From Chlamydiia bacterium (GTDB taxonomy: Bacteria > Chlamydiota > Chlamydiia > Chlamydiales > RGXB01): 44,037 nucleotides of DNA. Within the stretch, counting starts at the first letter, position 1. Each line of letters starts with the position of its first letter. The DNA lies in the NCBI GenBank assembly GCA_040382515.1, contig JBEIFH010000013.1, forward strand, positions 1 through 44,037, in the 5' to 3' direction. Position numbers: made by a program. Positions 9,001 to 15,000 of this stretch are shown in pieces.

Positions 9001-12000
9001 AAAGAATTTCAACGCTTTTTAAGGAGGCCTACCAAAGCCTTATTAAAGAGGAAAAGCTTTTCAAAAATAATTTTATCGATAATCGATATTTAATTTTGTT
9101 GCAATCCTCCTAAAGAAATTTCTTTTCAGGCAATACAATGAAAGATTCAAAAGAGATTATGGTAAGTGTTGATTCTAAAGAGACGCGTGTTGCGCGCATG
9201 AATCAAAAACGGCTTACCGAACTCAATATCGAGCGTAAAAAAAATAGGCTCATCTCCGGAAACATCTACAAGGGGAAGGTCACAAACATCCTCAAAAATA
9301 TTCAATCCGCCTTTATTGACATCAATGAAAACGAAAATGGGTTTATCCATATTTCCGACGTGATTGAAAACTCTCAAAAATTGCAGGAGATGTTTGAGAT
9401 CGATTTCGATTTCAAGGGTGAAAAAGCGGTCGAAGACGGGGATATTTCCTCCCATTTTAAATTGGACCAGTACATTCTTGTTCAAGTTGTGAAGGATCCG
9501 ATAGGTTCAAAAGGGGCGCGCCTCACTTCCAACATTTCGATTGCAGGTCGCTACCTTGTATTGCTTCCCAACTCCCCTTTGCGTGGTGTATCGCGCAAAA
9601 TAAAAGAACAACCGGTCCGCAATCGGCTCAAAGACATCATCGAGAAGTTTGAACTCCCCTCAAAAATGGGGTTGATTTGCAGAACCGCAAGCATAAAAGC
9701 GACTACGGATCAGCTCATCGACGAGGTGCGCGAACTGATCAATACCTTTGACGAAATCATCGAAAGCTACCATAAGGCAAAAGGGCCCACCTGCCTCTAT
9801 CGAGAGTCGGACATTACGAAAAAGGTTCTACTCACTGCCATGGATAAAGGGTACGAAAGGATCTTGGTCGATCACTACCCCATGTTCAACGAACTTAAGA
9901 AACTCTACGGCCGACACCCGGATCACCAGCTGTTGAAAATTGAATATTACCGCGATAAACTTCCCCTTTTTGAACGCTTTGGTGTGGATAAAGAGATTGA
10001 GAAAGCACTCAAACGGAAAATATGGCTGCAGAGCGGTGCCTATCTCTATTTCGATCGGACCGAAGCGATGCAGACTATCGATGTTAACTCGGGTCGTAGC
10101 ACAAGCGATATGGAGACAAAAGATGTCGAAGAGGCTCTTGTACAAATCAACAAAGATGCTGCCCTTGAGATTGCGAGACAGCTACGGATACGTAATGTCG
10201 GCGGTCTTATTGTGATCGACTTTATCGATATGCGCTCGAAAAAGAATCAAAAAAGGGTTCTGGAGACACTCAAAGACGCCCTATTAGAAGATTCCGCAAA
10301 ATGTACGGTTTTAGGAATGTCCGAGTTCGGCTTGGTGGAAATGACACGCCAGCGCAATAAGGAATCCTTGATTCAAACTCTTATGTGCCCATGCCCCTAT
10401 TGCAATGGCCAAGGGACAATACAAAGCCATGAGACCGCATCGATCGAGTTGGAACGTGCGATTAAAAAGCTTGTCATGGACGGCGTAAAAGGGAGCGTTG
10501 AGATTACCCTACACCCCGATCTTGACCGCTATATGGATGGGGAAGACAAGGAGTTTTTGGATAAACTTGCTAAAAAAGAGTCCCTGAAGCTCATTTTTAA
10601 AACGAACAATGAACTGCATTTGAATGATTTTCAATTAGCCACACCAAAAGGGAGCTCTAGTGCCTCTAAAAAACACGCCTGTGTATGAAATGCTATCCGA
10701 GCCACATCTTTCAGAACCATTTCGGTCTAACCTCTTAGAATTTATAGATTGTTTTCGCCAGATTAGTGGTAGTAAAGGGTTGCCGGATGATTTTATTGAA
10801 AGCAGTATTCAAGAACTTACCCAGTATATTCTTGAGCAGATCGAGTCCCCTTATCCTTTCCAGTCTATGCATATACCCCAGCAAGATGACACCCGTATGT
10901 ACGAGATAGGGCTCAAGATTGCTGCTCCCCTTATTCACGGAACGCCCGAGATAGTGAACCTCGACAATCTTTTCGAGGTGAAATCGCTTCTGGATCGGGG
11001 GGGAAACGTGATATTCGCAGCGAATCACCAAACAGAACTTGAGCCGCAAATTTTAAGTCTTGCCTGTGATCCCTACGTAAAAGACCTATTTAAAAATACT
11101 TTTTTTGTCGCTGGGGAAAGAGTTACAACCGATCCTATGGCGGCCCCTTTTTCAAGGGGGCGTAAATTGTTTTGTATTTATGCCAAGCGCTATGTGAGTG
11201 AAGATAAGAACATCGAGATGGAACGGAGGATGCATAATCTTAAAACGATCAAGCAGATGAAAGAGCTTCTCAACAAAGGTGGGGCTTGTATTTATGTTGC
11301 TTTGGGTGGAGGTCGTGACCGTCCCGATCTTCAGGGGCAAGTACAGCTCACCCCTTTTGATCCCAGCAGCGTAGGCCTTTTTACCCTGTTGAGCCAAACT
11401 GCTTTGAAACCCACCCATATATTCCCCTTGGCAGTATCGAGTTTCAATATTCTTCCACCACCAATTTCCATCCAAAAAGAGCTTGGGGAAAGGCGCTGGA
11501 CTCGCGGCGGATCTTTAAAAATTGCGATTGGTAAACGTTTTGACTACTCTCCCTTTTTGAAAATTGGGGACAAAGATGAGATGCATTCTGCTCTAACAAA
11601 CGGGCTATTCTCCGAGTTGACTGCATTATACCAACCATTTGAAGGGGATATCGCACCTTCAAGAGCCGTTCATTAAGACTTAGATTTTAAACGGTACAAG
11701 CCTAGTGCCCATAGGGGAAATAACACCTCGTATCCATGGTATTTCAAATAAAATACCCTTGGAAACCCGGGGGCATTGAATACAGCATCTTTCAAATTGT
11801 CTTTTCTTGATAAAATATAAAAGACTCCCCGCTCAACCTCTCTTGAGCGTACTTTACCAGCATATAGAAGAGCAATCAACACAATCGCTGTGTGAAAAAC
11901 TGTGCTTTTCTCTTGATTTTGTTTTAATGTAGGTGCGTAGGTGTCGCAAGATTCGCCCCATCCCCCATCTTCATTTTGTTTTGCAATCAAAAAATGGATC

Positions 12001-15000
12001 GATTTTTGCACCCACTCTTCCTCGGGATCGACTTTCACCTGCATCAATCCTAAAAGAGCAGAAAATGTTCCATAGAGATAGTTTGTCCCCCAACGCCCCC
12101 ACCATGACCCGTCCTGCTTTTGAGTCTTTTTAAGGTAATAAACGGCCCTTTGAATCGATTCTTTCAAGGATATATCATCAAGCTCCCCAAAAAAAGAGAG
12201 CACTCTTCCGGTGACATCTTCCGTCGGAGGATCTAAAAGAGCGCCATGGTCTGCAAAAGGGATCAAATTCAAATAGTCAAAATTCTGGTCTATGGAGAAG
12301 GCTGCAAAACCTCCATCTTTGGACTGCATTCCTTGCAGCCAATCCCTTGCAGCGTCAATATTTTTTTTGTAGAGATTCCTGTCGACTGCCGCCATGGCCC
12401 ATCCACACATGGCAGTGTCATCTAGGTCTGGGTAAAAAGGGTTGTTGTACTGGAATGCCCACCCCCCCCCTCTCAACTTCGGCCTTGAAAGGCTCCAATC
12501 ACCTTGAACTCCGATGAGTTGCTTTGAAGCAAGCCAGTCCAATCCTTTCAAAAGGGGCTCTTTTAGGTCATCCAAAGTGTACCTAAACGCATGCATTCCG
12601 ATGGATGTATCCCAAACCGGTGAAACGCAAGGTTGCATGAAGTGGTCCCCCTCAACATGAGCTTCAAGAGATAAGATCGCCTGCAATCCCCTTTGCACCA
12701 TCGGGTGCTCGATAGAGTATCCTAAGCTCAAAAGAGCTTTGACCTGATACTCCATGGCTGTATAGATTCCCCCTAATCCGTCCTCCTTATTATCATGATC
12801 TACAATCCATTTAAGAGCTTTTTTCTCAGCATAGCGCCTCAATTTTGACGGAATCCAACCATCCAGCTTCCGACCCACTTTGTCAATAAGATAAAATACA
12901 CCCCTCAAACCGTTGAAACGGGGTGGAGTGTAGGGAACTAGAAGCTCTTTAACATCAATTTTTTTAGGATTTTTAGCACGAAAATTTCTTGTCATGGCGA
13001 GAGAAAGGGGGATCACCACTGTCCTGGCCCAATAGGCAAATTTCTGCACGCTAAACGGAGACCATAAGGGCTGCAAAATCAGCTCCACAGGCATCCAAGG
13101 GGCTTCTTTTGGCTCTAATTGTTTGAATTGCACAAGAGTATACCGGGTAAAAACATTCGCCGCTTTGAGACCCCCATGGCGGCAGATTTTTTTTGCAATT
13201 TTGAGCATGAAGGGTTCGTTTTGAGATGCGCCGGCGCACTTCAGAGCATAGTAAGCTTTAATAGAAGCACTGATGTCATAAGGACCTTTTGGGTAACTCA
13301 CCCACCCATCATCATGGATCGTTTTTTTTAGATAGCCAGCCAGTCTCGTTTCCAGGGCCGGATCCCTAAAATCTATCGAGTGCATCAGCAAGATCATCTC
13401 TGCAGTGATGGTTGCATCACATTCAAGGGGAAAAACAAGGTAACCTGTGCTACTTTGAGCACGATAAGCTTTTTCTAGAAGCTGATTGATGAGCGCTGTG
13501 ACTTCTTCAACAGGAGGCATGCCATATTACCTTGAAATAGGGATCAAAACATCCCATACTGGATTCACCAAAAACCTGTCAACAAGTAAGAGTATGGCTT
13601 GAATCCTGTTTTAAGCCATATTTGTAAATACGGCATCTACGTCGTCTAAATTTTCCAACCAGTCGATCAATTCTTCGTTTTTTTTCCGATTTTCGTCATC
13701 AACCTCGACGAGAGATTTTGGAATTTGCTCAAAGTCCGCTTCCAGAATTTCTACCCCTTTTTGAATGAGTTTACCCTTCACCTCAAGCAGGTCGTCTAAA
13801 CCGGTGAATAGAATAAATTCTTCATCATTTGATTCAATTTCATCCACCCCTACATCAAGGGCGGTAAGAAAAAGCGCGTCCTCTGTAATTGTCTGTTTCT
13901 GAATCCGGATCACCCCTTTTCTATCAAATTGAAACAAAACGCTACCTGGAGTTGCGATATTTCCGCCACGCTTGTTTGTGGCTATACGCATGTCAGAAGA
14001 GGTGCGGTTTTTATTGTCGGTCAAAATCTCTACGACAATCCCCACTCCACCATGCCCATAGAGCTCATAGGTAAGAGCGAAGTATTCCCCCTGATCGGTG
14101 GAGCTCGCTTTTTTGATGTTGCGATCAATGTTTTCCTGTGGAAAGTTTGCTTCTTTGGCCCGGTCGATCGCAGCTTTCAATCGGGGATTCATTTTTGGAT
14201 CACCACTGCCCCCCTGCTTAACAGCTGTGATAATTTCTTTTGCAACTCGCGAAAATATTTTTCCCCTTTTCGCGTCCACTTTTTCTTTTCGTCGCCTGAT
14301 GTTTGCCCATTTACTATGGCCTGCCATTTTATAACCACTGCTGCATTAAAATTTTATCCCGATACGTCCCGTCCTGTTCTTTCAAGAAATCGGAATGGAC
14401 CCCATACTCTTCAAATCCTGCTGCAAGGTAAAGTCGACGGGCAGGATTGTCCTTATAAACTTCCAGGTGTAACAACGAGACAGCAAAATCTCTTTTTGCT
14501 CTGACTTTGATCTCCTCTAAAATCTGCTTGCCTATCCCTTTACCACGCATTTCGGGATGCACGATGATTGAAAAAAGAGATTGATGTTTGAGCTTCTTTA
14601 CCGGCGTCAGATAGAGATTAAAAAAGCCGACAATATTCCCCTCATTGCGCACCGTAAAAGCCGAGCCAAAGGTTTTTCCAAAATACCCAATCCAAATCTT
14701 GGATGCATCCTCTATCTCAAGCTGATTGATCATCGGAAACCATTTTAAAATGTTAGGTTCACTAAGCCAGCTTATTAGAACAGGGATCTCCTCTTCTTTA
14801 GAAACTTCATAGTTCAATTCGATTGGATCTCTCAAACACTACCCTCGCTTTGGTTTCACCATTAGGAAAACGGACGAATCCATTTTGCATAAACACTTTC
14901 TTAAATGATAGCTTCTCCAAAATAGAGACTAAAGAACAACCCTCATAAATTTCACATTGAATTTTTTCTACAATTTCAAACTTAAGGCTAAGGTGCACAA

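What a model noticed while it worked through the whole genome (the two positions that open the first line are those of the whole stretch)
11673..13520. Squalene synthase plus bona fide squalene-hopene cyclase: a hopanoid pathway in a chlamydia
g00823 (C13:11673-13520) passes NCBI's equivalog model for squalene-hopene cyclase and keeps the DxDD acid motif, and g00882 (C14:17856-18746) is a one-enzyme, eukaryote-type squalene synthase; both lie between ordinary chlamydial genes. Boldest reading: this genus makes squalene from MEP-pathway isoprenoids and cyclises it to hopene/diplopterol, so an obligate intracellular chlamydia builds its own sterol surrogate. New would be hopanoid synthesis in Chlamydiota, so far credited only with 'SHC-like' proteins of unknown function and sterol-modifying enzymes.
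Evidence so far: ncbifam.tsv: TIGR01507, kind equivalog, 580.8 bits against a cut of 431.1, model cover 0.97. Swiss-Prot: 40.6% over 616 aa to Bradyrhizobium Shc, 36.7% to the solved Alicyclobacillus enzyme. Sequence: PDLDDTAM, DLDD at 365-368. g00882: SQS_PSY 3e-36; best Swiss-Prot hits are fungal, plant and animal squalene synthases (25-30%). relatives.tsv: SQHop_cyclase_N/C in 6 of 559 Chlamydiales, 5 of them same-genus; SQS_PSY in 18 of 559. Neighbours are chlamydial (g00824 YebC 59% to Protochlamydia; g00819 LpxB; g00883-885 2-oxoglutarate dehydrogenase). MEP genes (g00221, g00357, g00500, g00831) and a polyprenyl synthase (g01251) are present. Papers: search in call 16 gave 6; PMC12414744 (one passage, [...]
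(Added by a program. Inside this text positions count along the whole contig: contig position 1 is position 1 of the stretch shown here. "Call 12" and the like, gene names such as g00115 and contig names such as C1 are that model's own, and its searches are not shown. The text may have been shortened before it was handed on; [...] marks where a part breaks off. The agent that wrote the report below was given it as the finding of a first reader that could run no searches.)

Follow-up and report, generated by a model that had tools for sequence, protein, structure and literature searches.

The report
Hopanoid-making genes in a lake chlamydia
One genus of uncultured lake chlamydiae, bacteria that live inside other cells and are thought to take sterols from their hosts, keeps two intact borrowed genes that should let it build its own simple hopanoids (bacterial sterol-like membrane lipids), although no lipid has been measured.

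Summary
Confirmed. Window 11673-13520 (-) encodes an intact 615-aa squalene-hopene cyclase (SHC): it passes TIGR01507, keeps DxDD and the cavity, and models onto the Alicyclobacillus enzyme (TM 0.92). A one-enzyme squalene synthase (Sqs) lies on contig C14. Each gene is in 6 of 7 genomes of the genus, at a fixed chlamydial site, under purifying selection (dN/dS 0.10 and 0.04). No true SHC was found in 397 other Chlamydiota genomes. Both genes group with gammaproteobacterial relatives, often encoded as sqs-shc, so the Sqs is bacterial, not eukaryotic, in origin. All seven MEP enzymes have homologues; hpnH, hpnN, P450 and squalene epoxidase were not found in the genus. Best reading: a stripped two-gene route to C30 hopanoids. 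Caveats: no lipid or expression data; the only trans-prenyl synthase looks GGPP-type; all 7 genomes also carry a sterol reductase, so 'replaces sterols' is unproven; a clade-fixed Pro263-to-Thr change may alter the product. A close chlamydial SHC is already named in GenBank and sits, unremarked, in a 2025 survey's alignment; a 2020 survey scored Chlamydiia zero. I found no paper stating chlamydial hopanoid synthesis. The scan had not noted this on other DNA.

The parts
11673..13520 (-). shc: squalene-hopene cyclase, 615 aa (P0001)
   Evidence: Open frame; TIGR01507 580.8 > 431.1; both Pfam SHC domains; model pLDDT 90.5 and TM 0.92 to 1sqc
12417..12428 (-). DxDD acid motif, D365-L366-D367-D368 (= D374-D377 of the Alicyclobacillus enzyme)
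   Evidence: Alignment; the three aspartates are invariant in 18 of 18 chlamydial and 186 of 186 other rows
12759..12761 (-). Thr254, at the place of Pro263 of the Alicyclobacillus enzyme (cation-quenching end of the cavity)
   Evidence: T in 18 of 18 chlamydial rows (not all independent), P in 186 of 186 others; role of Pro263 as cited in PMC6222715
13611..14327 (-). yebC, 90 bases upstream on the same strand; native chlamydial anchor of the insertion site (prfB-GNAT-GNAT-yebC run)
   Evidence: TIGR01033 passed; shc follows yebC in 5 of 5 genus genomes with a whole yebC and in 0 of 24 genomes of other families, 1.5 kb looked at
10660..11676 (+). Acyltransferase (PlsB-like; label recalled), converging on shc with a 4-base overlap of the stop codons; downstream anchor
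   Evidence: PF01553; coordinates; same neighbour in L004-L007
19191..19820 (+). ispD homologue, one of seven MEP-pathway genes; the others, the squalene synthase (C14:17856-18746), the polyprenyl synthase (C39:2877-3734) and the sterol reductase (on C21) lie on other contigs
   Evidence: TIGR00453 120.6 bits, below its cut-off of 181.3; other genes

Best explanation
The ancestor of this lake chlamydial genus took up a squalene synthase and a squalene-hopene cyclase from a gammaproteobacterium-like donor, probably as an sqs-shc pair that was later split. The genus has kept both as a minimal, oxygen-independent pathway. Steps: MEP pathway gives IPP/DMAPP (genes shown); the single IspA/CrtE-like enzyme gives FPP (inferred, weakest step); Sqs joins two FPP to squalene with NADPH (inferred from family and motifs); SHC protonates squalene at D367 and folds it to the hopanyl cation, which ends as diploptene and/or diplopterol (inferred from family, cavity and fold). 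With no HpnH/G or methylases the products stay C30, and with no HpnN they have no dedicated carrier to the outer membrane. They most likely order the bacterium's own membrane, beside host sterols that it still modifies.
For: Equivalog passed, rival cyclase models failed. 31 of 34 mapped catalytic and cavity positions equal the majority residue of 186 non-chlamydial SHCs, and two more are common minority residues. Fold TM 0.92 to SHC, 0.84 to human OSC. Sqs keeps the SRTF flap, DTIED (the DTxxD signature of the Sqs subfamily in PMC7306690), YCYYVAG and LQLTNILKD, and nests in the Sqs clade (98 SH-aLRT), away from HpnC/D. No PF01593 desaturase in G000, so no carotenoid or HpnE outlet. Both genes in 6 of 7 genus genomes and 4 of 4 high-quality ones, with fixed neighbours. 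dN/dS 0.104 and 0.040 against 0.033-0.264 for 11 neighbours, one pair each. shc GC3 is 0.446 against a genome mean of 0.468 and 0.80-0.88 in two gammaproteobacterial relatives. Trees join the clade to gammaproteobacterial SHCs (97 SH-aLRT; 100/99); all 15 of 78 outside loci with an sqs just upstream of shc fall in that group. dxs, dxr, ispD-H homologues present. In Alphaproteobacteria 48 of 49 shc-bearing strains made hopanoids with side chains, and the exception lacked hpnH (PMC12583986).
Against: No lipid, enzyme or expression data; the RNA runs gave only scraps over all genes alike. The only trans-prenyl synthase has Ser, not an aromatic residue, five places before the first DD motif (rule recalled), its best solved relatives are plant GGPP synthases, it passes no FPP-synthase cut-off, and it must also serve UppS and MenA. 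The SHC sits on a long stem (1.24-1.76 changes per site), and 23 of 175 near-invariant columns are changed in at least half of the chlamydial rows, including Pro263 and parts of three QW repeats. Two SHC-clade enzymes with intact motifs gave no product from squalene in PMC12414744. The Sqs lacks an 18-residue stretch and the C-terminal tail of its relatives. The Sqs tree does not pair it with the operon Sqs of any one donor, so joint transfer is inferred, not shown. Outgroup sampling was small and biased to best hits.
Confidence: 0.72

Rival explanations
1. The cyclase is active but has drifted to another product or substrate: a non-hopane or partly cyclised triterpene, or cyclisation of host-made oxidosqualene to 3-hydroxy-hopanoids.
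For: Long stem and clade-fixed changes near the cavity and in conserved helices (T254 for P, Y258 for N, Q412 for N, F486 for W, I546 for W). SHC-clade enzymes that act only on oxidosqualene exist (PMC12414744). The two Bacillales cyclases in my tree have S or T at the Pro263 place. The cell lives in a eukaryote, where oxidosqualene may be at hand (inference).
Against: All ring-templating aromatics, G585 (G600) and the full DxDD are kept. The genome makes its own squalene on paper and has no squalene epoxidase over cut-off in 0 of 7 genomes. Fern hopene synthases with Ala at 263 still make hopene (PMC6222715).
Confidence: 0.12
2. The pair does not form a working squalene-to-hopanoid line: free FPP is too scarce, or the Sqs homologue joins longer prenyl diphosphates, and each gene is kept for a separate job.
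For: The one prenyl synthase has a GGPP-type signature. The genes are unlinked, on different contigs. Three other chlamydial genomes have a full-length Sqs-like gene and no SHC match (G231, G278, G239).
Against: Both genes co-occur in 5 of 7 genus genomes; the two single absences are in incomplete assemblies (G002's yebC contig ends inside yebC; G005 is 72% complete). Both are under strong purifying selection. No desaturase for a linear product. Organisms with one CrtE-type enzyme can still feed Sqs (cyanobacteria; recalled).
Confidence: 0.1
3. Binning or assembly artefact, or a recent decaying transfer.
For: The genomes are metagenome assemblies; SHC is absent from the rest of the phylum sample; the sqs gene has the highest GC3 class in G000 (0.635).
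Against: Same chlamydial neighbours across the genus. A contig from another study spans 9001-13756, joining rne, the acyltransferase, shc and part of yebC (run X5). Ten 90%-identity clusters of full-length proteins, 59-97% identical, several named Chlamydiae or Chlamydiia. No stops inside. The high GC3 is regional: neighbours on C14 are 0.56-0.66, and sqs in four other genus genomes is 0.42-0.50.
Confidence: 0.02

Closest known systems
Squalene-hopene cyclase (TIGR01507; Alicyclobacillus acidocaldarius SHC, PDB 1sqc/1gsz), proteobacterial type
   Same: Two-domain fold (TM 0.92), DxDD, cavity aromatics, and the proteobacterial variants K88, N122, C298, F408, A423, H425, R439.
   Different: Thr at Pro263; three QW repeats eroded; long branch; stands alone, with no hpn cluster.
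Gammaproteobacterial sqs-shc(-hpnG) clusters (Dyella, Wenzhouxiangella and relatives; loci L017-L061)
   Same: Nearest SHC group in both trees and same one-enzyme Sqs type.
   Different: Here the two genes are unlinked; hpnG, hpnK, hpnL and hpnA-type neighbours were not found in G000 beyond one weak epimerase hit, and hpnH and hpnN were not found in the genus.
Schizosaccharomyces japonicus Shc1 (PMC8364164)
   Same: A horizontally gained lone SHC with C30 products only; diplopterol, the major product, acts as sterol surrogate. This is what the chlamydial system may work like.
   Different: A eukaryote using its own squalene; shown by lipid analysis, which is lacking here.
Sterol-modifying enzymes of environmental chlamydiae (sterol reductases, PMC9666466; sterol methyltransferase, PMC10070321)
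   Same: This genus has a sterol reductase too (7 of 7), like 132 of 400 Chlamydiota genomes.
   Different: Those enzymes act on host sterols; Sqs plus SHC would build a ring system from scratch.
'SHC-like' clade of unknown function (PMC7306690, PMC12414744)
   Same: Same superfamily.
   Different: P0001 passes the SHC equivalog and nests among annotated SHCs; no SHC-like sequence was in my trees, so this is exclusion by score, motif and nearest relatives.

Membership tests
Squalene-hopene cyclase (TIGR01507) | Whole-protein score over the equivalog cut-off | tested here: met
   580.8 vs 431.1; four clade members 575-635
Squalene-hopene cyclase (TIGR01507) | DxDD acid motif with its supporting Arg/His and Tyr | tested here: met
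   D365, D367, D368, R439, Y483
Squalene-hopene cyclase (TIGR01507) | Cavity residues that template the five rings and quench the cation | tested here: inconclusive
   31 of 34 equal the majority residue, two are common variants, Pro263 is Thr; the residue list is partly recalled, partly
Squalene-hopene cyclase (TIGR01507) | Two alpha-alpha barrel fold | tested here: met
   pLDDT 90.5, TM 0.92 to 1sqc
Squalene-hopene cyclase (TIGR01507) | Turns squalene into hopene and hopanol | not testable with these tools
   Needs an assay
Oxidosqualene cyclase / tetrahymanol cyclase | Score over the TIGR03463 or TIGR04277 cut-off | tested here: not met
   133 vs 851 and 150.9 vs 500
One-enzyme squalene synthase (Sqs) | DTxxD signature and placement in the Sqs clade, apart from HpnC/HpnD/CrtB | tested here: met
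   DTIED; clade support 98
One-enzyme squalene synthase (Sqs) | TIGR01559 cut-off | tested here: not met
   102 vs 286.75; none of the seven Sqs-type relatives scanned reach it either (89-130), so the model does not decide the case
One-enzyme squalene synthase (Sqs) | Makes squalene from FPP and NADPH | not testable with these tools
   Needs an assay
Extended (C35) hopanoid pathway | hpnH, hpnG, hpnN present | tested here: not met
   HpnH 0 of 7; HpnG 0 of 1; HpnN 0 of 7 over cut-off, two weak hits; all 8 radical SAM proteins found in G000 are housekeeping types
Bacterial de novo sterol pathway | Squalene epoxidase, OSC and CYP51 | tested here: not met
   PF08491 0 of 7 over cut-off; P450 0 of 7; OSC model failed
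Farnesyl diphosphate synthase (IspA) | Aromatic residue five places before the first DD motif; family cut-off | tested here: not met
   Ser in the three genus proteins printed (rule recalled); NF045485 121.5 vs 275

The most novel reading that the evidence does not exclude
After losing every side-chain and transport gene, the chlamydial cyclase was retuned (Thr at Pro263, Tyr at 258) to quench with water, so that the genus makes mainly diplopterol. It would use this amphipathic lipid in place of host sterol, in its free infectious stage or in the inclusion membrane, or supply it to a sterol-poor or oxygen-limited plankton host. That would be a chlamydia that makes, and perhaps gives, a membrane-ordering lipid instead of only taking one.
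Probability: 0.2. Interest if true: 0.8.

Novelty: new member of a known kind. Interest (0 to 1): 0.58.

Why it matters
Chlamydiae are described as takers and modifiers of host sterols, none shown to make them (PMC10070321), and a 2020 survey found no shc or sqs in 46 Chlamydiia. A genus with 1.4-Mb genomes that has kept a two-gene hopanoid route under strong selection adds a phylum to the candidate hopanoid producers. It also adds a widespread lake source of unmethylated C30 hopanoids for biomarker work. It offers a natural minimal system to ask what C30 hopanoids do without side chains or HpnN, and a natural Pro263 variant that tests the proposed control of hopene versus hopanol. The enzymes themselves are of known kinds and GenBank already names the cyclase, which limits the surprise.

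Tried and rejected
SHC-like, OSC and tetrahymanol cyclase labels: rejected on scores, motif and fold. Eukaryotic donor for the Sqs: not supported by nearest relatives; no eukaryotic Sqs was in my tree, so this rests on similarity ranks. Carotenoid role for the Sqs: no PF01593 match in G000. A second chlamydial SHC outside the genus: the weak G198 hit (E 9e-5) has no cyclase domain. Expression: RNA runs X18 and X20 held 8% and 5% of the words and gave 150-260-base contigs over several genes, one of them inside shc; this shows nothing about transcription. Promoter and terminator scans were at chance level, 9 vs 9.6 and 6 vs 6.1. Pro263-to-Thr as proof of diplopterol: not accepted, because fern hopene synthases have Ala there and fern hydroxyhopane synthases keep Pro; the primary mutagenesis paper and one review were not held. 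Sterol methyltransferase search: no match, but the control rang nowhere, so no verdict. PF04116: no match in G000. The tree file of PMC12414744 was cut in the copy I could read, so the published placement of MBM3195757.1 was not seen. dN/dS for deeper pairs could not be computed because synonymous sites are saturated. One genome (G011) was not scored.
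Full report
Observation. The minus strand of window 11673-13520 is a single 615-aa frame, P0001. 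It scores 580.8 bits on TIGR01507 (cut-off 431.1) and fails the tetrahymanol and oxidosqualene cyclase models. It aligns end to end with the Alicyclobacillus enzyme. An AlphaFold2 model from 58 sequences (pLDDT 90.5, pTM 0.91) matches 1sqc with TM 0.92 and human OSC with 0.84. Contig C14:17856-18746 (-) encodes a 296-aa SQS_PSY protein, P0002.

Is it chlamydial? shc lies 90 bases downstream of yebC, at the end of a prfB-GNAT-GNAT-yebC run, and converges on an acyltransferase with a 4-base overlap. SHC matches were found in 6 of 7 genomes of the genus at 66-93% identity, and Sqs matches in 6 of 7 at 73-97%; both are in 4 of 4 high-quality genomes, counts including G000. G002 has no SHC match, but its yebC contig ends inside yebC; G005, without Sqs, is 72% complete. 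shc follows yebC in 5 of 5 genus genomes with a whole yebC and in 0 of 24 genomes from 24 other families (1.5 kb examined); sqs sits between the same conserved ORF and sucA in 6 of 6. A contig from another study runs from 9001 to 13756 across rne, the acyltransferase, shc and part of yebC (run X5). The two closest named records are 'Chlamydiae bacterium' assemblies. Twelve DNA runs from 12 studies labelled lake, freshwater or aquatic hold 33-66% of the sampled words; I laid two of them. G000 has three ADP/ATP translocase-family genes over cut-off and SctV, as expected of an intracellular chlamydia. The host is unknown.

Distribution. In 401 Chlamydiota genomes drawn evenly, P0001 matched 5: four of the genus and one weak hit in G198 that has no cyclase domain. 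P0002 matched 13 of 400 scored: four of the genus, three full-length Sqs-like genes elsewhere (29-40%) and six partial hits. The other chlamydial proteins do not group with the genus clade. The protein collection holds ten clusters at 59-97% identity to P0001, then a gap to 44-48%.

Selection and age. Against the closest relative, dN/dS is 0.104 for shc and 0.040 for sqs; 11 neighbours give 0.033-0.264 (Nei-Gojobori, one pair per gene). Deeper pairs are saturated at synonymous sites while the proteins stay 66-80% identical. shc GC3 (0.446) is near the mean of 719 long ORFs (0.468, SD 0.055) and far from two gammaproteobacterial relatives (0.80, 0.88). sqs GC3 is high (0.635), but so are its neighbours, and four other genus copies are 0.42-0.50. 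Both genes are old residents.

Active site. I mapped 34 catalytic and cavity positions by hand (list partly recalled, partly). I compared 18 chlamydial rows (some duplicates) with 186 others: 76 locus proteins, two short ones dropped, and 110 best hits. At 31 positions P0001 has the majority residue, at two a common variant (T128, Y253), and at one a residue seen in none of the 186: Thr254 for Pro263, fixed in all chlamydial rows. Of 175 columns at least 95% conserved outside, 23 are changed in at least half of the chlamydial rows, and three QW repeats are eroded. PMC6222715 cites the proposal that Gln262 and Pro263 place the catalytic water and limit hopanol. It also reports fern hopene synthases with Ala at 263 and hydroxyhopane synthases with Pro, so the residue alone does not predict the product.

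The synthase. P0002 keeps SRTF, DTIED, YCYYVAG and LQLTNILKD, and lacks an 18-residue stretch and the C-terminal tail of its relatives. DTxxD is the Sqs signature in PMC7306690. Its nearest named relatives are Methylococcales, Nitrosomonas and Xanthomonadaceae proteins at 35-39%. It nests in the Sqs clade with support 98. It misses the TIGR01559 cut-off, as do all seven Sqs-type relatives scanned.

Origin. In a 111-row tree the chlamydial SHCs are one clade on a long stem, joined to a mostly gammaproteobacterial group (97 SH-aLRT). A 44-row tree with bootstraps gives 100/99 for that join and leaves open whether the clade is sister or nested. Of 78 outside loci, 15 have an sqs ending just upstream of shc, and all 15 are in that group; 41 others have hpnD and none has both. 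Joint gain of an sqs-shc pair is the simplest reading, but the Sqs tree names no shared donor, sampling was biased to best hits, and long branches can mislead.

Rest of the pathway. dxs, dxr, ispD, ispE, ispF, ispG and ispH homologues are present; dxr, ispD and ispF fall below their TIGR cut-offs. There is one trans-prenyl synthase per genome (two in G002, 5% contaminated). It has Ser five places before the first DD motif in the three copies printed and resembles plant GGPP synthases most. UppS and MenB-MenA-MenC draw on the same pool. FPP supply is therefore the weakest link. Not found: HpnH (0 of 7), HpnN (0 of 7 over cut-off), HpnG (G000), HpnE/CrtI-type desaturases (G000), squalene epoxidase (0 of 7 over cut-off) and P450 (0 of 7). 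The 8 radical SAM proteins found in G000 are MtaB, MiaB, LipA, RimO, HemW, two RlmN-like and EpmB-like, which leaves no HpnH, J, P or R in this 93%-complete assembly. All 7 genomes carry an ERG4/ERG24-family sterol reductase, as do 132 of 400 in the phylum.

Mechanism. Shown: intact, selected, vertically kept genes of the right families at chlamydial sites, and no detectable side-chain, transport, sterol or carotenoid branch. Inferred: FPP release, squalene synthesis, cyclisation to diploptene and/or diplopterol, and membrane ordering. PMC8364164 notes that diploptene inserts poorly in bilayers while diplopterol orders them like cholesterol, so diplopterol is the useful product if no side chain can be added. 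I put the working C30 pathway at 0.72. SHC-clade enzymes inactive on squalene exist (PMC12414744), which keeps the drifted-product rival alive.

What is in print. Six searches (chlamydiae + squalene-hopene cyclase; chlamydiae + hopanoid; chlamydi + squalene synthase + hopan; Chlamydiota + hopan; freshwater + chlamydiae + metagenome-assembled genomes + squalene; chlamydi + hopene) listed no title on chlamydial hopanoids. The library lacks most subscription papers, and bioRxiv supplements are closed. PMC12414744: passages, section 6, supplement searches and three parts of the supplement; the main text has one PVC acronym, the alignment holds MBM3195757.1 labelled a Chlamydiae SHC, 68% identical to P0001, and the tree file was cut. 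PMC7306690: passages, with no mention of chlamydiae in the main text, and Table S2, Chlamydiia 46 genomes, shc 0, sqs 0, shc-like 0. Passages only: PMC10070321, PMC9666466 (sterol reductases, no squalene), PMC3505017, PMC10697835 (26, supplement search 74), PMC5945725, PMC9290348, PMC8364164, PMC12195314 (no chlamydiae), PMC12583986, PMC6222715. Listing only: PMC2667531. NCBI already names several clade members squalene-hopene cyclase. Look-ups in the scan's notes found no earlier report of this.

Verdict. Real, and a member of known enzyme families in a phylum where I found the pathway unreported: new member of a known kind, interest 0.58. The boldest open reading, a diplopterol-biased cyclase whose product stands in for host sterol or is given to the host, has probability about 0.2.

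Noticed in passing
G000 C21, L165:1498-2790 (-): ERG4/ERG24-family sterol reductase, in 7 of 7 genus genomes and 132 of 400 Chlamydiota genomes but 0 of 29 in family f4; far more widespread than the few cases I saw in print.
   Followed up: partly
L127:5133-7959 (plasmid of Candidatus Vallotia cooleyia): An insect endosymbiont keeps hpnD and shc on a 66-kb plasmid, with Leu at the Pro263 place; V. tarda shows only a weak partial match. So shc in an obligate endosymbiont is not unique, and the same residue changed there.
   Followed up: no
L104:929-2454 (G231, another chlamydial family): An idi-sqs gene pair with no SHC match in that genome; its Sqs is a separate gain from the one studied here.
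   Followed up: partly
P0188: Unnamed Sqs, 44% identical to P0002, sister to the chlamydial clade (98) and sharing its 18-residue deletion; its organism could point to the donor.
   Followed up: no
P0008: SHC labelled Verrucomicrobia by NCBI nests inside the chlamydial clade beside a same-genus protein; probably a taxonomy label issue.
   Followed up: no
G000 C2, L122:663-3638: menB-menA-menC run of the classical menaquinone pathway; no futalosine-type radical SAM proteins were found in G000.
   Followed up: no
window 28536-29627 (-): Second RlmN/Cfr-like radical SAM methyltransferase, below the RlmN cut-off (247.9 vs 290), beside a canonical RlmN on C5.
   Followed up: no
L001:14296-16980 (-) (C14): PMR1/SERCA-like P-type ATPase with GC3 about 0.66, in a stretch of C14 with raised GC3.
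   Followed up: no
window 20774-21634 (+): Glycosyltransferase family 11 gene after ispD-truA.
   Followed up: no
window 7127-8257 (+): LpxB of 376 aa matches only positions 228-552 of the 610-position model NF002173, so it lacks that model's N-terminal part.
   Followed up: no
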